DNA of 64,000 nt from Prorocentrum cordatum (GCA_963575745.1 CAUYUJ010000192.1:496001-560000), one strand, 5' to 3'. Shown: positions 1,180-43,705, counted from the first letter of the stretch. The notes: generated by a model not told the origin, from the sequence alone. Made by a program: numbers and translations.

Positions 1180-1760
1180 AAAGCGGAGCAGCACGCCGAC
1201 GGGCTGCCAGCGGTAGCGTGGAGCCCGCGTCATCCTCCCTCCCAACCTCTGGGGAACAGGACTCCTCCTCCGCCTCCTCCTCCTCCTCCTCGTCCTCCTC
1301 CCTCTTCCTCCTCCTCCTCCTGCCCCTCCTCCTCCTCCTCCTCCTCCTCCTCCTCCTCCTCCTCCTCCCCCCGCCTCCTTCTCCTCCTGACCTCTGGGAA
1401 ACAGGACTCCTGTGCCCACGTCGCGCAGACGGAGCAGTGCAGCGCCATATTGTGCCTGGCGCACCTCCCGCCGCAGACGCAGAGTGTGGCACTGCCCTCT
1501 GGGCGCTCGACACTGGAATGTCCAAGGACGGCAACTCACGTCTGCATAGCGGGCACACTAGAACTGGGCCGTCGTGTTCGCAGCCCCAGCCTCTTCCTCC
1601 TCCTGCTCCTCCTCCCCGAGCCCATATCCCTCCTATGCTCCATCCCCCTCCTCCTTCGGTGGCAACTCCTGGGAACCTCCCATACCATCTCGTCGGCTTT
1701 TGCGAATCCACGCTCATCGACGCCAGTCGACGCCAATCATTGACGCTACATCGACGCTCA
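1180..1760 (+). repeat. Direct repeat copy 1 (partner 10485-10900); carries an extra (CCT)n insert
   Basis: 1390-1680 aligns at high identity with 10550-10840; both copies are followed by ATCGACGC-type repeats. Confidence 0.9.
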
Positions 1761-1851
1761 TCGACGCTAGTCGACGCAAACGTCGGAACTACCTCATCGA
1801 CTCCCATACGCACATCGACGCAAGTCGACGCCACATACGGAATTACCATTA

Positions 1852-2009
1852 TGTCGGGCGTGTACCCCATACAGGCGGATTTTTGGACGAACAATGAAAA
1901 ATACTCCAAGAATGCCAAAAAATTATCAAACAAACAATCGAAACACCTTCCCCAGACTATTGTTCAACTTTTCTTGGAATATTCCTCCTGTAGAGGGACA
2001 CGCCCAACT
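1852..2009. mobile_element. MITE family B (TIR ~(A/T)GTCGGGCGTGTCCCCCTACAGG), TA target duplication, Tc1/mariner-type
   Basis: TA|TGTCGGGCGTGT ... ACACGCCCAACT|TA; homologs at 34701, 44097, 46649 and ~55180-55330. Confidence 0.8.
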
Positions 2010-2761
2010 TAAAATGACCAGGGTACACGAGGCTCCGATGATTTGCTACCGAACCCCACCACGGCGGGGCGGGGAGCCCCAGAGTGCGTATCGAGAGCCC
2101 TCGGCGCGCGGGCGCTCCCGAGGCACAAACAGAAGCTGCTCGAGGCGGCCCAGGGACACGCAAGGACATACACACACAGATCCCAGGATTCTCCATCCTT
2201 TCGCCTCTGTTCTCGGTGTTCGTCTTCCCCCCCACTTCCCGCATGTTCCAGCATCTTCTGGGGCATCGGCGATTCATGGTGTCTGTGTTTTTTCCCTCCT
2301 GAGCTGCTCGAGGCGGCACGGGCACGGGGGAGCGTGTAGCTGCGAGCACGCGGGCAAGCGGGCGGGCGCGCCCCCGTCGGTCCGCGACGGGCCGGCCCTG
2401 CGAGGGCAGCGCAGGCGGGACGGGGCCCAAAGACCAGCTTCATGATTTGCTGTTTACAATTACACAATATGAAACTACTCTCCCACTTCCCCGGATGGCG
2501 TCCCGAAGATATCCGACACCCCCCCGCGTCTTGTTTTTTACACACAAGTTTCCCGGGAAACGGGGTTCCGCTTGTGTTTTCTTTTGTTTTTTCAAAATGC
2601 TGCTCCCGCTGAGGCGCCGGCCTCATTTCTGCTCCCAAATCGTTCCGAATCGTGCTCCCGCTGCAGCGTGGGCCTCATTTTCGGATCGGTGTTTGGCCTC
2701 CGTCGTTCAGGATGGCGTTCTCGCCCCAGCGCGGGCCTCTTTCTCGCGCGCCCATCCGCCC

Positions 2762-3020
2762 GCCACCACCGCGCCGCACCGCCACCACCACCACCACCAC
2801 CACCACCACCACCACCACCACCACCACCACCACCACCACCACCACCCACCACACACCAGCACCACCACCAGCACACCACCACCACCACAACCACCCACCA
2901 CCACCACCACCACCACCACCACCACCACCACCCCACCACCACCACCACCACCACCACCACCACCACCACCACCACCACGCACGCACGCACGCACGCACGC
3001 ACGCGCACCACCACCCACTA
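2762..3020. repeat. (CCA)n microsatellite with a (GCAC)n end
   Basis: Read directly from sequence. Confidence 0.95.
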
Positions 3021-3142
3021 CGCACGCGCGCGCGGAGCCACAGGTCCGCTACGACACGCGTCCGCGGATAGAGAAAATCAGCGCCATGGTAAGGGATGGG
3101 AGGGAGGGGTAGGACGTCAGATATGACGCGAGCGCACCTAGC

Positions 3143-3448
3143 TTGCCCCCCCCCTTCCTCCTCCTCCTCCTCCTCTCCTCCTCCTCCCCCTCCTCCTCCC
3201 CCCTCCCCCTCCCCTCCTCCCTCCTCCCTCCTCCTCCTCCCTCCTCCCTCCTCCCTCCTCCCTCCTCCCCCTCCTCCCTCCTCCTCCTCCTCCCTCCTCC
3301 CTCCTCCCTCCTCCCCTCCCTCCCTCCTCCTCCTCCCTCCCTCCTCCCTCCTCCTCCTCCTCCGCTCCTCCTCCCCTCCCTCGCTCCTCCCTCCTCCTCC
3401 TCCTCCTCCTCCTCCTCCTCCTCCTCCTCCTCCTCCTCCTCCTCCCCC
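3143..3448. repeat. Degenerate (CCT)n polypyrimidine microsatellite, 5' flank of the LINE
   Basis: Read directly; abuts the spliced leader. Confidence 0.95.
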
Positions 3449-3470
3449 TCCGTAGCCATTTTGGCTCAAG
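3449..3470 (+). other. Complete genomic copy of the 22-nt dinoflagellate spliced leader (TCCGTAGCCATTTTGGCTCAAG)
   Basis: Exact match to the DinoSL consensus DCCGTAGCCATTTTGGCTCAAG; followed by ATG rather than an SL-RNA intron, so it is mRNA-derived. Confidence 0.97.
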
Positions 3471-3664
3471 ATGCTTAGTTCCGCAGGGGAACAAGTGGAT
3501 ACCGCTAGTCCGCGGCCAGTTTGCAGTCCTTCCCCTGGTCAGCCCCAGGGCGAGCGCCGAGGTGGTCCGCCCCACCTCGGCGCGTCTCTCGCATTCTCAC
3601 TCGCTCGGGGCCTTTCAGCCTCGTGCATCGTGTTCCTGATCATCGTGTGCCTTGTTTCGGCAGG

Positions 3665-4801
3665 ATGGTGCCGCGCCCAGTCGCCGACAAGACTTGGCTG
3701 TGCAAGACCTGCATCCACGAGCGCACGGGTGAACCATTCTTCAATAAGGCTGACCGCACATCATGCTTCTCTTGCAGGCGGCCCAAGAGCAGTTGTTTCA
3801 AGGCCTACAAGACTTCCACCGCAGACCCGAGTGTGCACGCTGGAGGTCTCAAGGCTGGTGGCAAGAAGGCCGCTAGCGCTGGCTCGGCTCCTTGGGAGGT
3901 TGCCAAGCAGTTGCGACTGGCGCAGGAGACGATTGCCAAGCTCGAGAAGCAGATCCAGGCCAAGCAAGTGCCAGTGCCTGATGCCATGGGCGTGTCGGGG
4001 CCTAAGGCTATGGCAAATGATTTCGGTGAAGGCAAGTTTCGTGCACGTATTTTGGAGTTGGATAAGGAGATCGCAGTTGCCAGCAAAGGTGTTGGCGCAG
4101 CGTGGGATGTCCTCAAGGAGGCGCTCACAAAAGAACGCAGCGAGCTCCAGGATGAAATTAACAAGCACAAGCCTGCAGCCTCACGCATGTTCGTCGTTGG
4201 CAAGCAAATTGAGGCTATGGGCAAGCAGATTGCAAAGGCGGAGAAGGACGTTGACGACCAAAAGGCCGTCATCAAGGAGCTCCAGGATGTGCTGGGGCAG
4301 GCTGAGCAGAAGGTGCTGGACAAGAAGGCCAAACTGCTCGAGCTCCAGACCCAGCACGCTGACCTGGCGCGCCAGAACTATGTCCCACCTGTGCCTAATG
4401 ACGACGGTGAGGCTGGGCAGACTGTTCATGCTCTGGGCCTGGACACAACCAAGTTGGGTGAGGTGTTGCGCGCACTTGGAGCTGGAGACAGGACCGACGC
4501 CATCGCGCACGGTGTGGCTCAAGCACTGCCTCAGATTATCACGAATGCTCGGTTGCAACCAGTGGGCGCGACTCGACACCATGCAGGTCCTGAGCTGCTG
4601 GACAATGAGTCACTTGCTGATGACGAAGCTCCGCTGGTTCCTATCAAGGAAGCAACCGAAGACGCATTGCGGCCGTACCTGGCGGAGGCGGGTCAGGAGG
4701 TCCCCACATCTTTGGAGGAGATGCGTGACGCGGCCAATCGTCTCTGCAAGCTGGAGCAGCATGCCGAGCAGAGGAAAGGGCCAGGCTTCCAGGCCTACTA
4801 G
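3665..4801 (+). CDS. LINE ORF1 protein: N-terminal RanBP2-type zinc finger and long coiled coil
   Basis: WLCKTC-x10-NKADRTSCFSC fits W-x-C-x2-C...N-x6-C-x2-C; heptad-rich K/E/Q/L segments; ATG at 3665 is the second ATG after the SL; TAG at 4799-4801. Confidence 0.85.
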   Translation: MVPRPVADKTWLCKTCIHERTGEPFFNKADRTSCFSCRRPKSSCFKAYKTSTADPSVHAGGLKAGGKKAASAGSAPWEVAKQLRLAQETIAKLEKQIQAKQVPVPDAMGVSGPKAMANDFGEGKFRARILELDKEIAVASKGVGAAWDVLKEALTKERSELQDEINKHKPAASRMFVVGKQIEAMGKQIAKAEKDVDDQKAVIKELQDVLGQAEQKVLDKKAKLLELQTQHADLARQNYVPPVPNDDGEAGQTVHALGLDTTKLGEVLRALGAGDRTDAIAHGVAQALPQIITNARLQPVGATRHHAGPELLDNESLADDEAPLVPIKEATEDALRPYLAEAGQEVPTSLEEMRDAANRLCKLEQHAEQRKGPGFQAY

Positions 4802-4823
4802 GCCAAAGAGGCTAGTCCACGCT

Positions 4824-7800
4824 ATGATGATGTTCACTATACTGGTTAAGATGACGCATTCCGATTCTAAGATCAAGGGGCAGATTGTCACGGTCAATAC
4901 TGATGCAGCTGGCCCCTTGCTACGTTATGTGGAGCAGGCCACAGATGCGGTGATTTTGGTCCAAGAGCACAAGTCAGATGGATCAATGTTGCCCGGCCTG
5001 CAGTACAAGCTGAAGTGCATGGGTGCATGGGTTACCACGGCATATTCTCGGCGGCCAAGCGCACGGCAGCTGACGGGCTCTCAGCGGGGGTTGCTGTCAT
5101 CACGCCGAGCTTTATCACGATCACGGCGCCACCACTGCTCAAAGACCCTGAGATTGTGCCCTCTCGGGCTGCGGCAGCGCAGGTCAACTGGGGCCTCAAG
5201 AGTGGGCTGGTGGTCATATCCCTCTACTTGCAGGATTTCGTGGACCTGAATGACTACAACCTTATGATTCTACACAAGGTGGCGCAATACGTGGGCCGCC
5301 TCAATGCAGCAAATCGGCCTTGGGTCATTGGTGGTGACTTTAATATGAGTGCGAATTTGATTGGAGCTCAGGAGTGGGTGGCGCAGACGAATGCGTTGAT
5401 GATGGTCCCGTCGCACGTCACATGTCGCACCACCAACTCGGCTGAGGGCAAGATTTATGATTATTTTATAGTTCACTCCAAGTTGGCCGCCATCATTGAG
5501 CCACCAGATGTGGAGGCTGCAGGGCTACCCACGCATGCACCTGTGGTTCTTTCGATTCGAGCTGAGCCCAAGAAGATCTGGCTGAGGGTCCCTGTTGAGC
5601 CCAAGCAGTTACCAAAGCTACCCAAGCAAGGTTGTTCGCGATATCCTATGAACTGGGATCATGTGATGGGCACCACTCTACGTGCTCATGACGACGACAA
5701 CGCTCAAGATGGCTTGGGATGCAGTTACCACTGGAGTGGAATTTGAGATACTCAACAGGTACGACGTGGTTGACGATGAGGCTGCTCCGTACAGGGGCAG
5801 AGCTGGCCCGAGGGACACCAAGTTTGTCGAAGAACACTGGACCCCCAAGCGTGAGGCGGGAGGCCTTGGGCCGAACGCCTTAGCTTGGCTGGCTGCGGCC
5901 AGATGGGCGAAACATCTCATGAGAGTACGAGCCTTCTGGATCAAATTGGTGCAGGAAGCTGTGCGTGATGATAGGCGGGCGGGCGAATTTCACCTTCCTG
6001 ATTACAGCTCGCCCTGGACCAGCAGACAGCCATCCTTGGCGCCTGCAGCTGCAGTTCCTATGAGAGAGGAGTCAGAGGCAGGTGGCAACTGGACGACGGT
6101 CACCAGCAGGTCGAGTTCACAGAGGGCACCTACGAGTGGGTCATGCAGCCTACGCCCTATGAATGACGAGACTGCCCCGCGGCGCGTGTCCTCTGCTGAT
6201 CCGCGCATGCCCGCGGCTCTCAGCTCAGTGACCCCGTGCGGTGGGATCGCTGGAGGGCCGATGGCGCCGTGTACTGCAACTACTACCAATGATGTCTCTG
6301 CCCCTGGTAGAGGGCCTACGGGTACTGCTACGGCGACCGCGGCGACTGCGTCAGCCCCGAGGCCACGTGAGGATCCAGGGAATCCTGACAGAACGCAGCC
6401 CAGGAAGCAGCGAGCATCAGCGAGACTGAATCCCATTGACAGATTGGCTCGTTCGCTAGTGGACACAGATCGCTTCTTGCTCAAGATTGTGGGGCAGCAG
6501 AACCACATGTGGAGTCACCTGGGTGAGGAGACTCAGGGATTCTTCCTAGATGGCATCGCCTTGCTAGGGAGAGACGACTCCGAGCAGCAGATATACCGCA
6601 TAGTCGAGCGTGCTGATGAAGTTCACCAGGAGCATAGAAAGGAGGTGGAGGACAGCTGGAAGTCTTGGATCGACATGGCGTTCAAGAAAGGGGCAGGCCC
6701 TGCGCATCGCACGTCTAAGGTCAAGGCTTTGGAGGCAGCAGTGGCGCATACTGACAGAATGCAGCCGTACCAAATGGCCGACAGGGAAATGGATGTCTGG
6801 CATGAGGTATGGTCCTGCCATGGGCAGCGTGAGCCACCATTGCCGAGTGATGCGCATACATGGGAGGATCTTCCCCCGCTTCGGCCAGATGATTTGTCCA
6901 GGGCAGCTCCCGCGTTCACCTGGACGACGGCCACTGGGCCGACGAGGCTGCACCCTCGCGCATTTTTCTTCCTCTCTGATGCTGGCTTGTTGGCGCTCTG
7001 CACACTGTGCCACACATGCGAGAGGATGATGTACTGGCCGTCACAGAGAATTGTCAACGAGATGGTCAGGCTTGCCAAGCCCAATGGAGGCACGCGGCTG
7101 ATCACTTTAGTAGAGAGCATAGTACGTTTGTGGGCGCGAGCAAGGCGCCCGATTTCAAGAACATGGATTGTACAGCATGGGAGCCCTTTCATTTGGGGCA
7201 ACAGGAGGGGACACTCTTCCAGTTATTCCGCGTTTGCGCACAACCTAGAGGCGGAGATTGCTGCTTCTCTGGGAGAGAGTTCAGTCACTGTGTTTCTCGA
7301 TATGTGGAAATGTTTCGAGACAGTGCTGTTCCCTGCATTGTTTGAGGAAGCCAGGTGCCTGGGGTTCCCTCTTCGTTTATTATGGATGTTAATCAACTCG
7401 TATTCCCAGCCAAGGGTTATAAAGGCGTTTGGATGTTGGAGCAAGCAGGTGGTGGTGTACCAGGGCATCCTCGCGGGCTGCACCCACGCCACCACCCTCC
7501 TCACCATCCTCACCTACAGGGCCCTCATGAAGGTGCACCAGATAGCCCCCAACGTGACCCCGAGAGCGCTCGTGGATGACAGCACGTTCCAATGGGTTGG
7601 GCCGTCGGGGACTTCTTCGGCTGAGTTGTTCTTGGGGACCCAGAGCTTCGTCAAGGATTCGGCCAAGTTGGGGCTCCTGCTGCAGGTCAAGAAATCGGGC
7701 TGGGGCTCCAACACTAGGAAGGGGCACCTGGGGTTCCGCAAGTTGGCCTCAAGGATCAACCTCAAAAGCAAGAAGTGGGTCCGAAATCTTGGGCATGAAC

Positions 7801-10040
7801 TTGATGGGCCAGTTCCTGTGAGGAAACAAGCTAAGGCTAGGATGAAGGGCTTGCAGGACAGGCCCCCAAGGCTTATCATGCTCCAGAAGGCGGCGGGCAA
7901 CAGAGTCACCGCTATCTGGAGAACAGGACTTCTTCCAGCTGCTGCGCACGGCGCGACTGTATCTGGAGTCAGCGACCAGGAGCTTGCCCGTTTACGCTCT
8001 GTTGCTGGCATGTTATGTGGCCGTTCGACGGCAGTATCTTCTCTCACTGTATATCTGGCTACGCAGGCTGACGCCAAGTACGACCCAATTTACAATGCCA
8101 CCATGGACCCCCGGAAGGCCTACTGCAGCTTCGTCTGGGACAACAGAGTTTGCCTTGGGAGACTGCAGAGGGCCTGGATGAAGGTGGATGAGGGGCTCAA
8201 GATTAAGGCCTCTTGGACCTCGGCAAGGGGGCCCATTGCTGTGGTATGGATGTCTTTGAGGAGAATAGGATGGGGCATGTATTCCGCCACGGGGATCTAC
8301 AGCGACCTAGGTCACACGTTTGACCTCCTTCAGCTCTGTCCCAAGGACGTGCTGGAGTTGGTCAGGCAAGGCATCGAGCGCTGGCAAGGCATGCGTATAC
8401 TTACACATCATAAGGAGGTATGCTATGGGGATGAGGTCTTATGGATGAGAGCTATGAGGAGATGTATTGGTGCTAAGAAGGCAGTGGTCAGGCACCCACG
8501 TTTTGCTGGCGCGCTGCGTGCACTGTGGTCCGACTCTATTTGGTCACGTTCCAGACTGGCTGCCAAGGGGTACCAGATCTCCCCTGCCTGCATCTACTGC
8601 GCAGCGGAGCAATCGACCATTGGACACGAGTTCTTTCGCTGTCCTAGTTTTTACGATGACCTGCCTGAGGTGCCCGATCTCGACTGGAACACTGATATGC
8701 AGTACACATATGATATGTTAAGGGAGCTCGGACAGAAGGCCCTTGGAGAGCCCGACTGGGATTGTCTGGCAACGGCAGTAGGCATACCCGTGAGCCCTCT
8801 CATCCCACCGTATGTGGAGTTCAAGTTGCAGTACGGCTGCTGGGGTGACTGGGAGTCTGACAGAAGTTCCTGGAGCTCTTTGGTTTTCTCTGATGGTTCG
8901 GGGCTGGCCCCTGCGTGGCCTGAGATACGTCGATGTGGGTGGTCTTTCGTCGTCATGGGGGACAACGGGCTACCTGTTCGTGCGGCATATGGGCCCCTCG
9001 AGGGTCCGATACAAACGGTCGGGAGATCGGAGCGTATGGCTTTCCTCATGGCACTCAGGCTTTTACCTGCTGTGGACCTACTGGTGACAGATCTCCAGAG
9101 TCTGGCAGCTGAAATGGACTCCTGGCACCACGACCAGGAAGATGCGAATTCGACGTACGCAGACATCTGGAGGCACATCTTTCATGCTGCTGACGACAAG
9201 CGTCGGCCCAGAGCTTGCTGGACGCCTGCGCACATCACGATCGAGAGTTACCTGGAGGTACACTTCGGCACCCTCCCGTTTGAATTTCTGCTCGGGAACA
9301 TGTGGGCGGACTTTTTCGCCAGGGAGGGGGCCAACATGCACGCAGTACACAAATCGACGGTCCAAATGTTTGAGGCCAGGCTGAGCCAAGAGAAGTTGAA
9401 TGCTAAGTTCTTCTCCTGGGCGGCTGCTAAGCTCATAACCAGGGACTCCACCAGCAGTAGACCCGAGAGGCTCAAGTTAGGTGGCCCCCCGATTCCTGTA
9501 CAGCATGTAGGATTGCGTGTGCATGAGGTGGTCATCCGCAGTCCTGGGGTCTGGCAGTGCAAGAAATGTTTGGCCACGGCTCGGACCCCAGCCAGTTTGT
9601 TGAAACTCGTTGCGGGAACCAATAATTATGCTAAGTGTGAGCCAACGGAGCAACAAAAGCTCCAGGCCCGCAATGATGTTGTATTGCAGCGTGCATTGCC
9701 TTACAGGAGTGAGGCGGTCAACGTTGCGCTAGGTCTGGCGCAGGATCTCAGCCCACCCGATGACCCTGTCGTTCCTGGTCCGTCGGGGGCTCAGCAGCCG
9801 TGTGCAGACGACATTGTAGAGTTAGATGGCCACCGAATTCTCTCGAATCTCGGTGCAATGGTTTGCACATTGTGTGGGTCGTACCAGCTTAATGCTGGGC
9901 GTGCGGGGCACTCGAAGCTTGGAGGATGCTGCCTGGGCCCTTCCCAGCACCCCCCCACACTGTATAAGCAGAGGCATGCTATTAAGGCCATCAAGGCGGG
10001 TAAGAACCCCAAGAATGGCCAGCCGATCAAACTGTTTTGA
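4824..10040 (+). pseudogene. LINE ORF2 (APE endonuclease - RT - CCHC knuckle - RNase H - Cys/His motifs) with two frameshifts (~5015-5030 and ~5690-5701)
   Basis: APE motifs IVTVN, VILVQEHK (~4960), SAGVAVI, VISLYL, VIGGDFN (~5330), IYDYFIV, THAPV (~5531). RT motifs LAKPNGGTRLITL, FLDMWKCF (~7293), GILAGC, LVDD (7569-7580), RNLG. Knuckle CIYC-x8-H-x4-C (~8589). RNase H FSDGS (~8886), RSERMA, VTD, WTPAH, GNMWAD (~9294). Confidence 0.92.
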
Positions 10041-10100
10041 TGAGTTTCTTTGGCCCGCTCTGTTTTCCGTCACTTTTTCCCCTGGGAATCCACGGTAAAC

Positions 10101-10130
10101 GAGCTGGGCCCACATGATTGGCCCATGCTC
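10101..10130 (+). other. 3' UTR stem-loop of the LINE
   Basis: GAGCTGGGCC pairs with GGCCCA(T)GCTC around a 9-nt loop. Confidence 0.6.
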
Positions 10131-10163
10131 CCGTAGTTGGTTGCATGACAGGTCATCCGAGGC

Positions 10164-10347
10164 GTCCTCCTCCTCCTCCTCCTCCTCCTGCCCCTCCCCC
10201 TCCCCCACCCCCTCCCCCTCCCCCCCCGTCCTCCTCCTCCTCCTCCTCCTCCTCCTCCTCCTCCCCTCCTCCTCTTCTTTTTCCTCCTCCTCCTCCTCCT
10301 CCTCCGCCTCCTCCTCCTCCTCCTCCTCCTCCTCCTCCTCCTCCTCC
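10164..10347. repeat. (TCC)n tail and/or target microsatellite at the LINE 3' end
   Basis: Starts directly after the 3' UTR; no poly(A). Confidence 0.9.
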
Positions 10348-10484
10348 GCGAGGGCGCGGCGGCGGCGCGGGCGGGCCGGCTGGTACATCGCCACCCCGAA
10401 GGCGCCCTGCAGGTCGGCGGCCTCCGACGGCCCCCGGCGGCGGTCGCCAGCCGCCACCACCACCACCACCACCATCACCACCAA

Positions 10485-29003: not shown

Positions 29004-30897
29004 CTGCGAAAGGTGAGTATACGAAGGCAGGACGTTACATGTGACGACGCTGTGATGTAGCATGCTGGCCCACACGAAATAATAGACCAGAGCTGATACA
29101 CCGCATCCCACAGAGAATCATAGCGTGGCAGAAACTGGGCTGGCATAGCGTAGCATAGCACGCAACATCATGCAATAGTTACCATGGCGAAGCGGAGCAT
29201 CATTGCAAATCCGCCGACCCCTTGATTGAGGTCCACGGCACGTGGGACTGTTGCCCCTCCCCAGCCACGGTGGGGGCCCCGCACGGCGGGCTTGGAAATA
29301 GGGGGGGGGTATCACAAGCTGTGGCGGCGGCCCTGGCCGGGTCAGAGACTGTCCTGGACGTCCTGCGTGACTTCGGCATGCCTCACGGGGGTTTCTCGAC
29401 GACTCCCCGATGCCACCCGACCGTCCGGACACGGTTTCAACACAGCCGTCGGAGCCTCAAAACGCCACTGGACCCCCCGCGAGGGCCCCAATAAGACAGA
29501 CTGGCACCTTCCGTAGGGAAGGCTGGCATGCGTGGCAAACTCTTTCAGACCCCCTCTCTACCGACCCGAAATAGGCTACGAAAGCGGCGTCCGCGAAGCG
29601 CCACGGACGGTTCCAGCTGGCTCCAACGCGGCCAAAGAGACGCCAAAGGCAGCCCAAGATGACCCCGAGACTGGTTCAAAACTGCCCAAAATGGTCCCAT
29701 GACAGGCCAACACGGGCGTCACCCAGCCCAAGATGGCCCCCACATGGCCCGCAAAGCGCCGCCGACGGCCCGAAGAGGCCCCCTGAACCTCCGCAGGGGC
29801 CATAACATGGCATCCATGATTTTCCGCGAGGGCGCCAACAAACCAACATGTGCCCATTCCATTTCTTTACGGGAAAAATGCGGAGCTTGGCACAGTCGTT
29901 CAAACGCCCTGCCCAGCGACACGAAACGGGCCAAAGGGCCTCCAGGGCGGCCCCACGACGGTTCCTGGGGGCCCCAGGGCGACTCAGAATACGACCGCGC
30001 TAGCGCAACAGGACTCCGAGCCGGGCTCAAACCTGCCCAACATGGCCCAGTGACGGCCTGACATGGGCCCCACCCAACCCACGATGGCCCAAATACGGCA
30101 TGCAAGGCGCCGCGGACGGTCCAGGAAGGCCCCCTTGGGCTCCGTAGAGGCTCCAAGGTGGTTCCCCGAGGACCACCCGAGAAGGCCCCAACAAACCAAA
30201 AATCAGCCGTCGATGGGCCAAGTCATACCTTACTCGTGACATGTTCAGGCCTGCGCGCATGCGGGTCTGCGCGCGCCCACAAACCTGCATGGATGCAAGG
30301 TTGAACCCCCCATAAATGCACGCACGCGGAGATCCAGAGAAACAAAAACAACGGCGATAACGGTGATGCGATGCATGCTGGCAATGATGAAATGGATGAT
30401 GGATGGCGGCGACGATGAGATGGCTGTTTGATGATGCTGGAAACACTGTTCAGTTACGCGCGCAACGTCAGTGGACCACCGACCAATGTCAGCAACAGAC
30501 GGTCCCCGGGCCATGGCTCTCGCCCAAATGCGCCGCGCCGAGGATCAGGCTGATGGTTCGCCACGTTCCTCGCCAGGGTCAGGCGTTCGGGAACTGCCGC
30601 GAGCGCAGGTTCTGTCCCAAATCGTGCCGATAGCTTCAAGTGCCCTCAACTGGCAGAGCCGGCAGTACGATTGCATGCGGCGGCCCACCTTTCACCCCGA
30701 GCCCGAGCTACCGATGCTGTGCAATTGGCCGAGGGCGTCGCTGCCACCTTCCAACTCCTGCTGGGCTCAAGTGGGAACTTTTGCCGCAACTGCGTAGGCT
30801 GCAAGCGCCCTCGCACGGCAGCCGCGCCTCCTCCTCGGAGGTCGCCCACCGACCATTCGCCCCACTCCACCCAATTCCACGCGTCAAACTCTCCTTG

Positions 30898-31500
30898 TCT
30901 GTGCGTGTGTGCGCGTGTGTGCGCGCATGTGTGTGTGTGTGTGTGTGGGTGTGTGGGTGCGGGTACGGGTACGGGTGCGGGTGCGGGTGCGGGTGCGGGT
31001 GCGGGTGCGGGTGCGGGTGCGGGTGCTTGTGCTTGTGCGTGTGCGTGTGCGTGTGCGTGAGCGTGTGCGTGTGCGTGTGCGTGTGCGTGTGCGTGTGCGT
31101 GTGCGCGTGCGCGTGCGCGTGCGCGTGCGTGTGTGTGTGTGTGTGCGTGTGCCGTGTGTGTTTGTTTGTGTGTGTGCGTGTGCGTGTTGCGTGTGGCATG
31201 TGGCGTGTGCGGCGTGTGTGGCGTGTGTGGCATGTGTGGCGTGTGTGGCGTGTGTGGCGTGTGTGTGTTGTCTGTGTTGTGTGTTGTGTGTTGTGTGTGT
31301 GCGTGTGTGCGTGTGTGCGTGTGTCCGTGTGTGCGCGTGTGCGCGTGTGCGTATGCGTGTGCGTGTGCGTGTGGCGGTGTGCGTGTGCGTGTGCGTGTGT
31401 GTGTGTGTGCGCGTGCCTGTGTGTGTGTGCGTGTGAGTGTGTGTGTGTGTGTGTGTGCGTGTGTGTGTGTGTGTGCGCGTGAGTGCGCGGGTGCGCGCGC
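30898..31500. repeat. (GT)n/(GTGC)n/(GGGTGC)n compound microsatellite
   Basis: Read directly. Confidence 0.95.
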
Positions 31501-34500
31501 GGAGGGGTGCTTGCGGCGACCTGCGGAGGGCGGGCGGCGGCGCCTTTGGGTCGCGCGCGTCGACCAGCACGGAGCACGCCGCAGGGTTTAAACGCGCCGC
31601 GGGCGGCGGCGCCGCGGCCCGCGCCCTTCGCTGGCATGGCGGCGGCGCCCCGAACGCCTGGCGCAGGGCGGGCGGCACCTTGGGCCAGACCGCTGCAATC
31701 GACGCTGCGCCGCCGTCTGCGGGCGCCGCGCTGCTGTCGGCCGGGGCCGACGGGCGCTGTGTTGTGGCGCGCGGCTCCGGGCGTTTTCGAGCGGCCGCCG
31801 TCGGGCGGGCTCGGGCGGGCCGGCGCGGGCGGCCCCGGGCGCCCGCCGACATCGGCCTCCGTGGCCGCCCCGCGGCGGTCGACCCCTGCTGCTCCAGACC
31901 TGCCGCCCTGCGGCCCGCCTCTCTCCGCTGCCCCCCCTGCTCGCTGCACGGGCGCCGCGCGGCTGTCGGGCGGGCTCGGGAAAGGCCGCCGCCGGCCGAG
32001 GCTGCGAGAGCTGCCGCGGCCGCGGGGCTGGCCGCCGCCACCGACGGCGGCGGCGGCGGCCTGGAGAGGCCCCCCCAATCGACGGGGAAGTCCAAAGGGC
32101 GCGCGCGGGCCTCGGCGGCGCACGCGAAGACCCACGGGTCGGTCTCTCTCTCCACGCGGGGCATCCGTTCAGAGAATCCGCCCAGCCCACTCCGCCGGGT
32201 GCGACGGAGCGGGTGGAGCGCGCCTGGATGGGCGCGCGCAGTCTCGCACGTTCGACGGCGATGGCCCCCTTCCGAGTCCACGGGTAGAGGGGGGGGGCAA
32301 GTGTCAGGAACGGTTCGAAGCCGTCGCCCTCGCGATCCATTTTGCTCTCTCCTCTCCTTTCAGTGGCGGCAATGGTCGACCGCGCGCGCGCCGCCCCCTT
32401 TGCTTATGCACCAAGTGCCAGGCATATTGTTTGTTTTGCGGGCGTCGCCCCCGCTTCGCCGGGAGCCTCTCGGAGCGCACGGTGAGTTCATTCGGCGCGC
32501 CAATCTGCAGAATCGACCCCCAATGCATCCTACTCCAAAGATTCTGCTCGGCCCGCTGGTAGCGCGCAAACACCTATCCCAAGGAGAACTGGATGGCTGC
32601 GAAACTTTAAATTGCTAGGAACACCAGGCGAATCAACGACGCCGCCCCCGCGCGCCGGTCTGTCACGGCGCAACTCAAACCCGCCCGTCTTCGCGCCCAG
32701 GCCCGCGAGCGCCGTCGACAGGAACGGCGCGCTCGCATTCCACCTGACACCACGCCCTCGCCCGCCGTTCCCCCCCCCCAGCCTGCCGCCGCCATGCATT
32801 TTCAAGCCCGAGTGCGACGGGAAGGGGGCGGGGTGGGTGCGAGGATGAACATGGGGAAATGGGTGGCGGCTAATGCACTGGCGCAGATAGCGTGGTCGGA
32901 GGCACGTCTGGACCCGCCTTGCGGCCGTCTTCCTTGGCACGGGGCCGACGATGGATCCTCGGCCCCGCCCCGCTCTTATTGACTGCGTGGTCGACTGGTT
33001 GATCGGCAGGCGGGCGGGAGAGGGCAATCCCCGCGGCCCCTTTAATCATGGAATCTGCGAGGGGCGCGAGGCCCACGGTGGCCCTCGGTGGCGAAGCCTG
33101 CGGTAGTCCTCGCCCAGGGGGGGCGCGAGGAAAGGGGGCGTCGCCGTTGTGAGAAATCTCCGCGGCTACCTCGCTTCCTAAAATGGGACCCCCGACCGGA
33201 GGAAACCCTTCGAGGAAAGATTTGCCCATCCCCCCTCCCCCCTCCCCCTGGACCTGGACGGGGGTGGTCGCGGGTAGTTGGAGCGTCCAAAAAGGCCCAA
33301 GACGGCTCCAAGAACCCCTCGGAAAGCCTAAGATGACCTCCAAGATGGCTCAAGAGAGCGCAAGATGCCTCAAAATGGTTTTCAAGATGTTCCAAGAAGC
33401 CCCAAGAACGCTTCAAGACTGCTCCCACATGCCTCCAAGACCTCCAATGAGTTCCGCAAGATGCCCCAACCCCTTCGAAAACCTAAGGCAAATCAATGAC
33501 TTGTGCGTTCTCGCCGATTCGCTTCCGATGGCTATCCGAGGCCTCACGATGGCCCCAGTGTGGCCCGAAGAGGCCCCCGGAGAGGCCCGAGAGAGCCCCA
33601 AGAAGGCCCGAAGAGCGCCCAAAGAGCGCCCGGAGAGCGTCCCAAGAAGGGGTCCAGGAAGCGATTGCTGGGGCTCCCGAGGGGTGAGGCTGATTGGAGC
33701 TCCCCTCTTGTTTGATCGATGTCCTCCAACATGGCCCCAGGAGTGCCCCTAAAGCTCCCAAGAGCGCCTCAAGCTGGCCCCAAGAGGCGCCCAGGCAGCC
33801 CCAAGAGGCGCTCCAGAGGCCTCCAAGAGGCTCCCGAGAGGCCACCAAGAGGCCTCAAGATGATCTCCGAGGCACCCAAGACGCTCTCGAAGAAGCCACT
33901 GGGCCCGCCAAGAGGCGCCTTGGATGCCACAAGAGGCCTCCGAAAAACTTCCAAGGGACATCCGAAGAGACTCCGAAATGCATCGATGAGGCCTCTGGCC
34001 CTTCTGCTCGTCCTCCCCTCCTCCTCGTCCGCCTCCTCCTCCTCCTCCTCCTCCTCCTCGTCCCTCCTCCCCCTCCCCCAACTCCTCCTGCTCCTCCGAT
34101 TCCTCCTCCTCCATCCTCCCCTGTTGGGGCATGACGTCATCCCCCGTCCTTTGTTTCTCTGTGCTCCCACACTCCCCTGATCAAAGGAACTCCTCTGGGC
34201 ATCGTTGCTGGAAAGCTAACCGACAAAGAGTGTTTTTTTTAGGATGGGTTTTCTTCGCTAGTGTGGTTTTTTTAGGATGGGCTGGTAGTGATTCGCGAAG
34301 TGTCAACAATTTGAACTTGGCGTTGCCTTGTGCTGGCGCGTGGTGAATGCCGATTGCCCTCGTAGACATTCGCACGCTCGTCCCAGCGCTGAAGCAGGAG
34401 GGGAGGGGGGCGCATCCGCCCCCCGTGACATTGGCAGCACCCTGGGGCGGGCAGAACGACGCGGCAGAACTTCGCGGCAGACGAGCAGGGCAAACGACCC

Positions 34501-39059: not shown

Positions 39060-40120
39060 TCTTCGGTGAAGCTCCCTATGGGGCCACGGAGCGCAGCACC
39101 GGGTGGGGGGGAACGCATGCGGGCGGTAGCAGTGGGTCCGCCGGTTGGTTTCCCTATGGGGCCACGAAACGATGTACTGGGTGGGGGGGGCGCATGCGGG
39201 CGGTAGCACCGTGGCCTTCGGTGGAGCTCCCTATGGAGCCACGAAACGCAGTACTGGGGGGACGCATGAGGGCGGTAGCTCTGGGGCCGTCGGTGGAGCT
39301 CCCGACGGGGCCACAAAACGCTGTACAGGGTGGGGGGGGGCGCGTGCGGGCGGTAGCAGTGGGATCTTCGGTGGAGCTTCCTATGAGGCCGCGAAACGCC
39401 GCACTGGGTGGGGGGGACTCACGCGGGCGGTAACACCGGGGCCTTCGGTGGAACTTCCGATGGGGCCACGAAGCGCTGTACTGGGTGGGGGGGACGCATG
39501 CGGGCGGTAGCTTGAGCCGTCGGTGGGGCTCCCAATGGTGCCACGAAACGCTGCACCGGGGGGGGGGGGCGCATGCGGGCGGTAGCGGTAGGACCTTCGG
39601 TAGGGCTCCCTAGGCCACGAAACGCTGGGTGAGGGGGACGCGTGCGTGTGGTAGCACTGGGGCCGTCGGTGGAGCTCCCTAAGGGGCCACGAAGCGCTGT
39701 ACTGGGTGGGGGGGACGCAGGCGGGCGGTAGCACTGGGGCCGTCGGTGGAGCTCCCTATGGGGCCACGAAACGCAGTACTGGGTGGGGGGGATGCGGGCT
39801 GTAGACTTGGAGCCTTCGGTGGAGCTCCCTATGGGGCCACGAAGCGCTGTACTGGGTGGAGGGAACGCGTCCGGTAGCACTTGGGCCTTCGGTGAAACTC
39901 CCTGTGGGGCCACAAAACGTGTGAACGGTGTGCCGAAATGGGTGGGGGGGGCGCACGCGGGCGGTTCCAGTGGGGGCTTCGGTGGAGCTCCCTATGGGAC
40001 CACAAAACGCTTCACTGGGTGAGCGAAAATGCCAAATTGGGTGTGTGGGACACTGGGGGCTTCAGTGGAGCTCCCTATAGGGCCACGAAGCGCTGTACTG
40101 GCTGGATGAAAATGCCAAAT
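39060..40120. repeat. Tandem satellite, ~77-bp unit (GGTGGAGCTCCCTATGGGGCCACGAAACGCTGTACTGGGTGGGGGGGACGCATGCGGGCGGTAGCACTGGGGCCTTC)
   Basis: About 13 diverged units. Confidence 0.92.
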
Positions 40121-40124
40121 TCTG

Positions 40125-42824: not shown

Positions 42825-42892
<68 letters not shown>

Positions 42893-42900
42893 TGTGTGTG
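40125..42900. repeat. ~2.8-kb (GT)/(GTCT)/(GTGC) microsatellite expansion
   Basis: Read directly. Confidence 0.97.
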
Positions 42901-42904
42901 GTGG

Positions 42905-43705
42905 TGGGGGGGGAACGCATGCGGACGGTCCCACTGCGGGCTTCGGTGGAGCTCCCCATTGGGTTCAAAGCTGTACTGAGTAAGTAAAAATGCCACATTA
43001 AGTGTGTGAGGCGCATGCGAGCGGTCCCACTGGGAGTTTCGGTGGAGTTCCCTGTGGGGCCACGAAGCGATGCACTGGTTGGGTGAAAATGCCAAATTGG
43101 GTTTCCAGGAAGCACGCGGACGGTCCCACTGAGGGCTTCGGTGCTGTGGTGCCACGAAACGATGTACTGGGTGGGTGAAAGTGCCAAATTGGGTTTCCGA
43201 GACGCATGCGGACGGTCCCTCTGCGGGCTTCGGTGGAGCTCCCTGTGGGGCCACGAAGCGCTGTACTGGGGACACGAAACGCTATACTGGGTGAGTGGAA
43301 ATGCCAAATTGGGCTTCCAGAGCTCCCTATGGGGCCACGAAGCGCTGTACTGGGTGAGTGAAAATGCCAAATTAGGCTTCTAGAACGCATGCGGACGGTC
43401 CCACTGCGGGCTTCGGTGGAGCTCCCTATGGGGCTACGCACGGCGTGCTGGGTGAATGAAAATGCCAAGTTGGGATTCCGAGACGCATGCGGACGGTCCC
43501 TCTGCGGGCTTCGGTGGAGCTCCCTATGGAGCCACGAAACATTGTACCGGGTAGGTGAAAATGCCAAATTGGGCCCCCGAGACGCATGCGGACGATTCCA
43601 CTGCGAGCTTCGGTGGAGCTCCCTGTGGGGCCACCAAACGCTTTACTGGGTAGGTAAAAATGCCAAATTGGGTTTCCGGGACGCATGCGGACGGTCCCAC
43701 TGGGG
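42905..43705. repeat. Continuation of the 39-kb satellite with longer (~92-bp) units containing GAAAATGCCAAATTGGG
   Basis: Same GGAGCTCCCTATGGGGCCACGAA core. Confidence 0.9.

What the first reader, a model, noticed from the sequence alone, without database searches (positions are those of the whole stretch)
3471..4853. First AUG after the SL opens the ORF2 frame and stays open across all of ORF1 (possible dual coding)
Seen: ATG at 3471 (SL+1) starts a stop-free frame to 5249 that is the frame of the APE N-terminus (IVTVN...QEHK). It overlaps the whole of ORF1 in the +1 frame. The ORF1 ATG (3665) is the next ATG. In ORF1, Leu or Val before A-starting codons uses CTC/GTC, which avoids TGA in that frame. 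Inference: ORF2 could be made from the cap-proximal AUG as a protein extended by ~450 aa, with ORF1 made by leaky scanning; a +1 frameshift is another option. Either would be an unusual way to translate a bicistronic LINE RNA. High GC makes chance openness possible.
Basis: partly seen in the sequence, partly recalled or inferred. Interest (0 to 1): 0.7.

Follow-up and report, generated by a model that had tools for sequence, protein, structure and literature searches.

The report
LINE RT frame kept open across ORF1
In a dinoflagellate jumping gene, the reading frame of the reverse-transcriptase gene has no stop codons across the whole upstream gene, and a distant relative shows the same, which suggests an unusual way of translating two overlapping genes from one RNA.

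Summary
A complete 22-nt dinoflagellate spliced-leader relic (3449-3470) is followed directly by ATG 3471. That frame is stop-free to 5249, covers all of ORF1 (3665-4801) in the +1 phase, and is the ORF2 (endonuclease/RT) frame. The next ATG is the ORF1 start.

In the window alone the statistics depend on the null:
- P(no stop) is 0.008-0.009 by synonymous permutation.
- It is 5e-5 by codon-order shuffle.
- It is 0.087 once ORF1's general lack of xTA codons is allowed for.

The decisive evidence is an independent, distantly related SL-capped LINE (L013/L143). Its ORF2 frame has no stop across ORF1 (9.6 expected; 0 of 20000 permutations) or across a second upstream ORF (5.4 expected; 6 of 20000). 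The other off-frames there carry 4 and 26 stops. In 42 control SL-tagged genes, 0 of 84 off-frames are stop-free.

The open frame is therefore very probably selected. How it is used is inferred only. The best guess is initiation at a 5'-proximal AUG in the ORF2 frame, with ORF1 read from its own AUG.

Points against: one TAG in L013, 1-nt indels in sister leaders, and no expression data.

The parts
3150..3448 (.). (CCT)n-type pyrimidine microsatellite directly upstream of the element. It is the insertion-site repeat, and a similar repeat follows the 3' end.
   Evidence: sequence read
3449..3470 (+). Complete 22-nt dinoflagellate spliced-leader relic (T + CCGTAGCCATTTTGGCTCAAG). It marks the 5' end of a retro-copied, trans-spliced LINE mRNA.
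   Evidence: exact match, the only one in the window; SL sequence as given in PMC2606063 (abstract)
3471..3473 (+). First ATG of the RNA, directly after the SL, in the ORF2 frame. Context ctcaagATGc (A at -3).
3471..4823 (+). Stop-free ORF2-frame stretch of 451 codons ahead of the ORF2 ATG cluster. It covers the 194-nt leader, all of ORF1 (+1 phase) and the 22-nt spacer. Its codon composition is that of an ordinary off-frame.
3554..3583 (+). 12-bp G+C-rich hairpin in the leader, between the two ATGs.
   Evidence: -31.6 kcal/mol for 3546-3592
3665..4801 (+). ORF1, 378 aa. It has an N-terminal zinc-ribbon-like motif (similar to the RanBP-type finger of L013 ORF1) and a Lys/Glu/Ala/Gln-rich middle part that I read by eye as coiled-coil-like (not tested). 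It is the true coding frame.
   Evidence: sister protein P0001, 97% identical
4824..4853 (+). ATGATGATG cluster (4824-4832) and ATG 4851 in the ORF2 frame, starting 23 nt after the ORF1 stop. This is the conventional ORF2 start.
4824..10040 (+). ORF2 (endonuclease, reverse transcriptase, zinc-binding region, RNase H-like end). In this copy it is split over three frame segments.
   Evidence: (RVT_1 29.8 bits, zf-RVT, weak Exo_endo_phos)
5015..5030 (+). 8-bp tandem duplication (GTGCATGG twice), private to this copy. It shifts ORF2 out of frame.
   Evidence: (8 bases left out at 5015 in one X2 contig); P0003
5699..5699 (+). One extra base relative to sister contigs. It returns the reading to the original frame.
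   Evidence: left out in X1 and X2 contigs
10041..10348 (+). 3' untranslated region followed by a (CCT)n-type tail or target repeat.

Best explanation
The element is a retro-copied, spliced-leader-capped LINE of a dinoflagellate. Selection keeps the ORF2 reading frame free of stop codons over everything upstream of ORF2: the leader, ORF1 and, in a relative, a second upstream ORF. The most likely reason is that ORF2 is reached by ribosomes that start at a 5'-proximal AUG in the ORF2 frame and read straight through, which would make an ORF2 protein with a long, sequence-unconstrained N-terminal extension. ORF1 is read in its own frame from the neighbouring AUG. In the window the ORF2-frame AUG comes first (SL+1) and ORF1 would need leaky scanning. 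In the relative the ORF1 AUG comes first and the ORF2-frame AUG follows 5 nt later. Shown: the open frame, its frame-specific excess over chance, its recurrence in a distant family, and its absence in control genes. Inferred: that it is translated, where translation starts, and the rationale, which is that SL-capped mRNAs are read from the 5' end, so overlapping frames are a way to express two proteins from one RNA.
For: Window element:
- 0 stops in the +1 frame of ORF1, against a mean of 3.1 by synonymous permutation. P(0) is 0.0089 (20000 shuffles) and 0.0080 (3000 shuffles).
- Other nulls expect more stops: 9.1 by codon-order shuffle (P 5e-5), 10.6 with ORF2 codon usage (0 of 20000), and 8.2 with a context-aware ORF2 model (0 of 5000).
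- The +2 frame is normal: 24 stops against 25.4 expected.
- xTG followed by A occurs 0 of 39 times, while other NNG codons are followed by A 25 of 104 times (Fisher 2.9e-4).

Independent relative L013/L143 (SL relic, RanBP-type zinc-ribbon ORF1, Exo_endo_phos + RVT_1 + RNase_H ORF2, about 25% identity to the window's ORF2):
- Up to the ORF2 stop at 8966, the ORF2 frame has 3 stops (161, 203, 1355). The other two frames have 53 and 59 over the 9096-nt contig.
- Across ORF1 it has 0 stops against 9.64 expected (0 of 20000 permutations).
- Across ORFx it has 0 stops against 5.41 expected (6 of 20000).
- The other off-frame of each ORF carries 4 and 26 stops.
- ORF2's own off-frames match expectation (16 vs 15.3; 32 vs 30.3).
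- The phase differs between the upstream ORFs (+2 for ORF1, +1 for ORFx, +1 in the window) but is always the ORF2 frame.

Controls and further points:
- In 42 other SL-tagged ORFs of 300 codons or more, 0 of 84 off-frames are stop-free (minimum 4 stops). That compares with 3 of 3 for the ORF2 frame in the LINEs (Fisher 8.5e-6).
- GC-phase and codon-model tests show that ORF1 and ORFx are the coding frames and the open frame is ordinary off-frame sequence. The two open-frame products are unrelated, so the constraint is on openness, not on sequence.
- The two starts are consecutive ATGs in both elements: 3471 then 3665 in the window; 231 then 236 (gccATGg) in L013.
- In 106 of 130 SL sites the first ATG after the SL opens an ORF of 100 codons or more. 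One SL+1 ATG (L124) opens a 526-codon ORF.
- In the other relatives the ORF2 frame is open far upstream of the endonuclease, limited only by contig ends: L142 is one 2369-codon frame, and L154 is open for 260 codons or more.
- None of the 34 best-supported sister-copy substitutions that I evaluated makes a stop in this frame. Within ORF1 the 18 substitutions are 12 synonymous and 6 not.
Against: - L013 has a TAG at 1355-1357 in the ORF2 frame, 12 nt after the ORF1 stop. In that copy a ribosome starting at ATG 236 could not reach ORF2. No read-through structure follows the TAG (z = +1.1).
- Sister contigs of the window's family carry 1-nt deletions in the leader: 3526/3527 with 3555 or 3561 in X1 and X2, 3595 in X4, and 3474 in three runs. 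If these are the only indels in those copies, the SL-adjacent ATG leaves the ORF2 frame. Contigs were too short to phase, and 2 indel rows and 402 substitution rows were not shown.
- Part of the window's signal is ordinary codon usage. ORF1 has 0 xTA codons of 84 T2 codons, and they are missing even where no stop would result (0 of 35 before C/T, 6.9 expected; P 4.7e-4). With xTA and AGA excluded, P(0) rises to 0.087.
- ORF2 has its own ATG cluster 23 nt after the ORF1 stop, as in conventional LINEs.
- The first AUG has A at -3, so ORF1 would get fewer ribosomes than ORF2. That is the reverse of what is known for L1 (recalled).
- No RNA, ribosome-profiling or peptide evidence exists, only two full-length elements were available, and the window copy itself is broken.
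Confidence: 0.4

Rival explanations
1. Frameshift route. Ribosomes translating the ORF just upstream of ORF2 slip into the ORF2 frame (+1 in both elements). This could happen at a programmed site or at low frequency anywhere along the ORF, giving rare ORF1-ORF2 (or ORFx-ORF2) fusion proteins, as gag-pol does. An open frame over the whole upstream ORF would let any slip be productive.
For: ORF2 is +1 relative to the ORF directly upstream in both elements: window ORF1 and L013 ORFx. It would give a low ORF2:ORF1 ratio, as expected for LINEs (recalled). The TAG at 1355 in L013 does not block the ORFx-to-ORF2 path.
Against: No Ty1, Ty3 or antizyme-type +1 motif in frame, and no X XXY YYZ heptamer, in window ORF1, L013 ORF1 or L013 ORFx (motifs recalled from memory). 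A programmed site needs only a short overlap, not 378-687 open codons. It does not explain why the ORF2 frame is also open over L013 ORF1 (+2 phase, 9.6 stops expected) or over the leader.
Confidence: 0.2
2. The open frames encode separate overlapping products, or serve only to protect the RNA. One version is an extra Arg/Gly/Ser-rich protein overprinted on ORF1 (in L013: ATG 236 to TAG 1355, coextensive with ORF1). The other is that the frame is kept open so that ribosomes starting in the wrong frame do not terminate early and trigger RNA decay. In both versions ORF2 is started conventionally near its own ATGs.
For: In L013 the overlapping ORF starts 5 nt after the ORF1 ATG and ends 12 nt after the ORF1 stop. 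The window has an ATG cluster at the conventional ORF2 start. The sister protein P0002 was called from an ORF2-frame ATG at about 4728.
Against: The open-frame products of the two elements share no similarity. They look like plain off-frame sequence and change freely between sister copies (15 of 18 substitutions alter the residue). A separate ORF1-overlapping protein does not explain the open frame over ORFx and the spacers in L013, or why the frame is always that of ORF2.
Confidence: 0.15
3. Chance plus composition. High G+C, TpA depletion and ORF1's own codon usage (no xTA codons) make an open +1 frame fairly likely, and the relative is a second coincidence.
For: - The window is poor in stop triplets (1.9-2.1% against 3.1% expected; TA observed/expected 0.55). 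It has 95 stop-free runs of 200 codons or more.
- Conditional on ORF1's lack of xTA and AGA, P(0) is 0.087.
- ORF2's own +1 frame also has fewer stops than permutation predicts (42 vs 58.3).
- The finding was picked post hoc from a very large scan.
Against: - L013 was found by homology, not by its frames. It still gives 0 of 20000 and 6 of 20000 permutations, in exactly the ORF2 frame, with normal counts in all other off-frames.
- 0 of 84 control off-frames are open, including genes of G+C 0.54-0.68.
- The other very long open runs examined in the window are mostly simple repeats or very G+C-rich stretches.
Confidence: 0.08

Closest known systems
Bicistronic APE-type LINEs (L1-like; SART1 with UAAUG stop-start coupling)
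   Same: ORF1 (nucleic-acid-binding type, here with a zinc ribbon) lies upstream of an ORF2 with endonuclease, reverse transcriptase and RNase H. A short spacer and ATGs sit at the ORF2 start, and the 3' tail is a simple repeat. How ORF2 starts is an open question for most families (PMC3894237, passages read).
   Different: Here the ORF2 frame is stop-free over the whole of ORF1 and the leader and has an AUG at the 5' end. The 5' end is a trans-spliced leader. I found no report of this layout for any LINE (searches: listings and abstracts).
Tymovirus-type overlapping ORFs started from closely spaced AUGs (replicase polyprotein and an overlapping protein); recalled from memory, not checked in a paper here
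   Same: Two long ORFs in different frames start at consecutive AUGs near the 5' end. The longer one carries the polymerase. In L013 the two AUGs are 5 nt apart and the second has the better context.
   Different: That is an RNA virus, not a retrotransposon. Here the overlapped part of the polymerase frame shows no sequence conservation. In the window the AUGs are 194 nt apart and the polymerase-frame AUG comes first.
Gag-pol expression by +1 frameshift (Ty1, Ty3) or stop read-through (MuLV); recalled
   Same: The downstream polymerase ORF is in the +1 frame of the upstream structural ORF. In L013 a single UAG separates an upstream ORF from the polymerase frame.
   Different: No known shift heptamer and no structure after the UAG. 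The overlap is hundreds of codons rather than a few.
DinoSL-tagged retrogenes of dinoflagellates
   Same: A DNA-encoded spliced-leader relic at the 5' end shows retro-copying of a mature mRNA (PMC5585692 passages; PMC6050394 and PMC12014239 abstracts).
   Different: Here the tagged RNA is the LINE itself, presumably the source of the reverse transcriptase, not a passenger gene.
SymbioLINE-Dnmt elements of Symbiodinium (PMC5890265, passages read)
   Same: They are dinoflagellate LINEs with an unusual ORF1 upstream of the RT ORF. L013's extra ORFx shows the same kind of modular gain.
   Different: No DNMT domain here. The passages read in that paper report no frame overlap.

Membership tests
APE-type non-LTR retrotransposon (LINE) | Reverse transcriptase domain in ORF2 | tested here: met
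   RVT_1 at 29.8 bits against a cut-off of 29.6. It aligns with L013 and L142 ORF2, which score RVT_1 at 2e-11.
APE-type non-LTR retrotransposon (LINE) | N-terminal apurinic-type endonuclease (Exo_endo_phos) | tested here: inconclusive
   The window segment 5027-5743 scores 16.3 bits, below the 24.5 cut-off. The N-terminal piece aligns to the start of L013's Pfam-confirmed domain (E 0.006). There is no PDB sequence hit for the 63-aa piece.
APE-type non-LTR retrotransposon (LINE) | Upstream ORF1 and a simple-repeat or A-rich 3' tail | tested here: met
   ORF1 runs 3665-4801. A (CCT)n-type repeat follows the 3' UTR and also flanks the 5' end. Target-site duplication was not resolved.
DinoSL-tagged retrocopy | Full 22-nt DCCGTAGCCATTTTGGCTCAAG at the 5' boundary of the copy | tested here: met
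   Exact match at 3449/3450-3470, the only one in the window.
Dual-coding ORF pair expressed by leaky scanning | Overlap free of stops beyond chance, specific to one frame | tested here: met
   window; L013; controls.
Dual-coding ORF pair expressed by leaky scanning | The two starts are consecutive AUGs, the first in the weaker context | tested here: inconclusive
   The AUGs are consecutive in both elements. In L013 the second AUG has the better context. In the window both have A at -3 and only the second has G at +4. The rules for dinoflagellates are unknown.
Dual-coding ORF pair expressed by leaky scanning | Both frames are translated | not testable with these tools
   No RNA holder was listed. 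No ribosome-profiling or peptide data were available.
Programmed +1 ribosomal frameshift (Ty1/Ty3/antizyme type) | In-frame shift heptamer near the end of the upstream ORF | tested here: not met
   None in window ORF1, L013 ORF1 or L013 ORFx (motifs recalled).
Stop-codon read-through (MuLV type), considered for L013 only | Stable structure about 8 nt after the UAG | tested here: not met
   Folding of L143:1355-1454 gave z = +1.11, and 172 of 200 shuffles folded at least as well.

The most novel reading that the evidence does not exclude
Dinoflagellate spliced-leader-capped LINEs express their reverse transcriptase as a giant protein started at the 5'-most AUGs of the RNA. ORF1, and further ORFs where present, are overprinted in other frames inside a sequence-free but stop-free N-terminal extension. 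This would be a virus-like dual-coding solution, forced by strictly 5'-end-dependent translation of trans-spliced mRNAs. It would answer, for this lineage, the long-standing question of how ORF2 of a bicistronic LINE RNA is translated.
Probability: 0.35. Interest if true: 0.85.

Novelty: new variant of a known kind. Interest (0 to 1): 0.72.

Why it matters
How ORF2 is translated from a bicistronic LINE RNA is unsettled for most families. A stop-free ORF2 frame laid over entire upstream genes, seen in two distant families, gives a concrete and testable alternative: initiation or frame change far upstream. It bears on how organisms that cap every mRNA by trans-splicing can express two proteins from one RNA. 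It also gives annotators a simple computable signature, frame-specific stop depletion, for finding such elements in the very large, LINE-rich dinoflagellate genomes. These LINEs presumably supply the reverse transcriptase behind the many DinoSL-tagged retrogenes.

Tried and rejected
- No whole genome is held for the window. Sister copies could not be fetched as DNA.
- Metagenome scans found nothing: ORF1 protein and the SL+leader pattern.
- Viral-contig scans with ORF1 and with the ORF2 alignment confirmed no relative.
- Protein searches:
  - ORF1 gave one sister fragment (P0001).
  - The open-frame product gave no hit among shorter proteins.
  - The endonuclease piece gave no hit among longer proteins.
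  - The all-length representative search gave only P0002 touching the open frame (query residues 421-451), plus ORF2 N-termini. P0006 and P0009 are repeat proteins that I take for spurious.
- No RNA holder was listed for the stretch.
- Rfam gave two sub-threshold matches on the leader hairpin only.
- A Pfam scan of 134 other window ORFs found no host gene, only two hits below cut-off. A host codon-usage control from this window was therefore impossible.
- The window's leader is not found in any fetched locus.
- Earlier-findings look-ups returned nothing.
- More LINE copies were sought in 16 genomes holding SL loci (G001-G016) and in a 401-genome family sample around G002 (G002 plus 400 others). 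Only G001, G002 and G003 had matches, and only L013/L143 has a complete 5' end.
- The read-through structure after L013's TAG was not supported.
- Known frameshift heptamers were not found.
- Atlas look-alikes for L013 ORFx were uninformative (best score 0.80, model pLDDT 0.34).
- The idea that the first ~70 nt is a known small RNA was not supported by Rfam.
Full report
OBSERVATION. The window (G+C 0.61) holds one exact dinoflagellate spliced-leader (DinoSL) core at 3450-3470. T at 3449 completes the 22-nt leader. ATG 3471 follows directly. Its frame (position mod 3 = 0) is open from 3456 to the stop at 5247-5249, and the stop just upstream is the TAG inside the leader. No other ATG in any frame lies before 3665, the start of ORF1 (3665-4801, 378 aa). 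The open frame is +1 to ORF1. It runs on into an ATGATGATG cluster (4824-4832), ATG 4851 and the sequence ...GQIVTVN...ILVQEHK. That sequence aligns to the beginning of the Pfam-confirmed endonuclease of a relative.

THE ELEMENT. It is a LINE. ORF2 carries RVT_1 (29.8 bits against a cut-off of 29.6), a zinc-binding RT-associated region and a weak endonuclease match. ORF1 has an N-terminal zinc-ribbon-like motif. A (CCT)n-type repeat lies on both sides. The full leader at the 5' end shows that a mature trans-spliced LINE mRNA was copied. This copy is dead. An 8-bp tandem duplication (5015-5030) and one extra base at 5699 split ORF2 over three frame segments. One contig of run X2 lacks the 8 bases, and X1 and X2 contigs lack the base at 5699. 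The sister protein P0003 reads straight across the junction. In intact copies ORF2 is therefore a single frame, the frame of ATG 3471.

CHANCE, WINDOW ALONE. ORF1 has 0 stops in the +1 frame and 24 in the +2 frame. The nulls give these results:
- Synonymous permutation within ORF1: 3.1 stops expected, P(0) 0.0089 (20000 shuffles) and 0.0080 (3000 shuffles). The +2 frame is as expected (25.4).
- Shuffling codon order: 9.1 expected, P(0) 5e-5.
- ORF1's protein recoded with ORF2's codon usage: 10.6 expected, 0 of 20000 stop-free.
- A model that also keeps ORF2's dependence on the next base: 8.2 expected, 0 of 5000.

Two cautions apply.
- ORF2 itself has fewer +1 stops than permutation predicts (42 vs 58.3, P 0.0003).
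- ORF1 has no xTA codon at all: 0 of 84 codons with T at position 2, against 60 of 448 in ORF2. They are missing even before C/T, where no stop would arise (0 of 35, 6.9 expected, P 4.7e-4). This is a general codon-usage trait of ORF1. AGA is also absent (0 of 19 Arg codons, against 27 of 125 in ORF2).

With xTA and AGA excluded, the model expects 2.06 stops and P(0) is 0.087. What remains specific is TGA. None of 39 xTG codons is followed by A, while 25 of 104 other G-ending codons are (Fisher 2.9e-4). Taken alone the window is suggestive, not decisive. The leader adds little, because 65 open codons have a probability of about 0.18-0.30 at local stop frequencies.

SISTER COPIES. No sister DNA could be fetched. 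Contigs of four public runs laid on 3445-5800 show many copies.
- Of 442 substitution rows, 40 were displayed. I evaluated the 34 that lie at 3598-4995 and dropped the 6 rows at 5095-5676.
- None of the 34 makes a stop in the open frame.
- Within ORF1, 12 of 18 are synonymous for ORF1, while 15 of 18 change the open-frame residue. ORF1 is therefore under purifying selection, and the open frame is not constrained in sequence.
- Against the hypothesis, some contigs have 1-nt deletions in the leader: 3526/3527 together with 3555 or 3561, 3595, and 3474. If uncompensated, these shift ATG 3471 out of the ORF2 frame. For the two-deletion form, the ATG would fall into the ORF1 frame with no stop in between.
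- One loose end suggests a variant with an in-phase 63-nt deletion.
- Contigs are too short to phase, and 2 indel rows were hidden.
- The first ~70 nt have far higher depth, and other sequences follow them in at least about 25 contigs. The SL-adjacent ATG is thus part of a widely shared 5' head.

INDEPENDENT TEST. Scanning public collections for the DinoSL core gave 138 loci, 1.55 Mb in total. tblastn with the window's ORF2 hit one of them, L013 (whole contig L143, 9096 nt, G+C 0.70), filed in a bacterial MAG but plainly dinoflagellate-like.
- Layout: SL relic at 117-137; ORF1 at 231-1343 with a RanBP-type zinc ribbon (1.4e-7); a second ORF of unknown function, ORFx, at 1696-3756; and ORF2 with Exo_endo_phos, RVT_1 and RNase_H, ending at 8966. 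It is about 25% identical to the window's ORF2. The ORF1 proteins share only the zinc ribbon.
- The three ORFs lie in three different frames, each with the coding G+C phase and codon signature.
- Before its end at 8966 the ORF2 frame has only three stops (161, 203, 1355). The other two frames have 53 and 59 over the contig.
- Over ORF1 the ORF2 frame is the +2 phase: 0 stops, 9.64 expected, 0 of 20000 permutations. T-ending codons are followed by AA/AG/GA 0 of 63 times, against 26 of 98 in ORFx and 41 of 320 in ORF2.
- Over ORFx it is the +1 phase: 0 stops, 5.41 expected, 6 of 20000 permutations. xTG is followed by A 0 of 74 times, against 2 of 25 in ORF1 and 13 of 149 in ORF2.
- The other off-frames carry 4 and 26 stops. 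ORF2's own off-frames match expectation.
- As controls I took the 42 other SL-tagged ORFs of 300 codons or more (43 examined, including L013 ORF1). In these, 0 of 84 off-frames are stop-free, and the minimum is 4 stops, also at G+C 0.54-0.68.
- Three of three ORF2-frame overlaps are open, against 0 of 87 other off-frames (Fisher 8.5e-6).

Because L013 was found by homology and not by its frames, this is a real replication. I put the probability that the open frame is maintained by selection at about 0.85.

MECHANISM. Only reading by ribosomes can make an absolute frame matter across ORFs that lie in different phases. The simplest model has ribosomes start at a 5'-proximal AUG in the ORF2 frame and read through into ORF2, while ORF1 is read from the neighbouring AUG.
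- In the window the first AUG (SL+1, A at -3) is in the ORF2 frame, and the next one (A at -3, G at +4) starts ORF1.
- In L013 the first AUG (231) starts ORF1, and the second (236, gccATGg) is in the ORF2 frame.
- After a DinoSL relic, the first ATG opens an ORF of 100 codons or more in 106 of 130 sites. One SL+1 ATG opens a 526-codon ORF in very A+T-rich DNA. 5'-end scanning and use of an AUG right behind the leader are therefore plausible.
- In two further relatives the ORF2 frame is open far upstream of the endonuclease. L142 is one 2369-codon frame whose first 600 nt code in that same frame. L154 is open for 260 codons or more. Both are limited by contig ends.

The main difficulties are these.
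- The TAG at 1355 in L013 could be a private mutation, a leaky stop or a true ORF end. No structure follows it.
- Some sister contigs carry leader indels.
- The window has a conventional ATG cluster at the ORF2 start.
- The expected excess of ORF2 over ORF1 is awkward.

The rivals are a frame change from the ORF just upstream (no known motif), separate overlapping products or protection from early termination, and chance. They are scored in the report sections.

COMPARISON AND NOVELTY. The element is a member of the APE-type LINEs and of the DinoSL-tagged retrocopies. What is new is the stop-free polymerase frame laid over whole upstream genes, with a 5'-proximal AUG. Functionally it resembles the overlapping ORFs of some RNA viruses that start at neighbouring AUGs (recalled, not checked). 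My literature searches (listings and abstracts, with passages of PMC3894237, PMC5585692 and PMC5890265) found no description of this in LINEs or in dinoflagellates. Those searches cover open-access papers and bioRxiv only, and I read no supplements.

VERDICT. The open frame is very probably selected, and the replication is the key result. The mechanism is inferred (0.4 for 5'-proximal initiation). Interest is high, because it makes the question of ORF2 translation testable in a new system.

Noticed in passing
window 3447-3519: The leader's first ~70 nt (SL plus about 50 nt) have summed contig depth of about 2700 in X1 and 2250 in X6, against 20-60 just downstream. At least about 25 contigs diverge into several different sequences at 3516-3520. 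This looks like a 5' head shared with other elements or transcripts. No Rfam family matches it.
   Followed up: partly
window 3150-3448 and 10166-10348: (CCT)n-type repeats flank the element on both sides. Either the LINE has a (CCT)n tail and targets the same microsatellite, or it inserted into one. The upstream pyrimidine tract plus the AG of the relic would make a good trans-splice acceptor.
   Followed up: no
window 3665-4801 versus 4824-10040: ORF1 and ORF2 of one element use codons differently. ORF1 has no xTA codon (0 of 84, against 60 of 448), no AGA (0 of 19 Arg codons, against 27 of 125), and few GGG and CCC, while A-ending codons after C are not avoided.
   Followed up: partly
window 5700-10040: ORF2's own +1 frame has fewer stops than synonymous permutation predicts (42 vs 58.3, P 0.0003). 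xTA is rarer before A/G (23 of 247) than before C/T (35 of 178). This is unexplained. L013's ORF2 shows no such deficit.
   Followed up: no
window 3554-3583: A perfect 12-bp G+C stem with a 6-nt loop lies in the leader between the two ATGs (-31.6 kcal/mol for 3546-3592). Sister contigs have 1-nt deletions inside it (3555, 3561).
   Followed up: partly
window 4728-4730 (sister copies): Most sister contigs read T at 4729. This is silent in ORF1 and creates an ATG in the ORF2 frame 74 nt before the ORF1 stop. A public gene call (P0002) starts there.
   Followed up: partly
L143 1696-3756 and 3757-4807; L142 600-1650: The relative has a third, 686-aa ORF of unknown function between ORF1 and ORF2 (no Pfam family; Atlas model pLDDT 0.34). 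It also has tandem peptide-like repeats just upstream of the endonuclease, and L142 has similar repeats.
   Followed up: partly
L001-L138: Exact DinoSL cores occur in 20 stretches of bacterial MAG contigs and 119 stretches of IMG/VR contigs, many in a few giant-virus MAG bins. They are usually followed within about 50 nt by a long ORF. This suggests dinoflagellate contigs, or retro-copied host genes, inside these bins.
   Followed up: no
window 39900-43400 and 30600-32600: Very long stop-free runs on both strands (up to 899 codons) are made of CA/GT-type microsatellite-like repeats or 72% G+C sequence. They are not genes by composition.
   Followed up: partly
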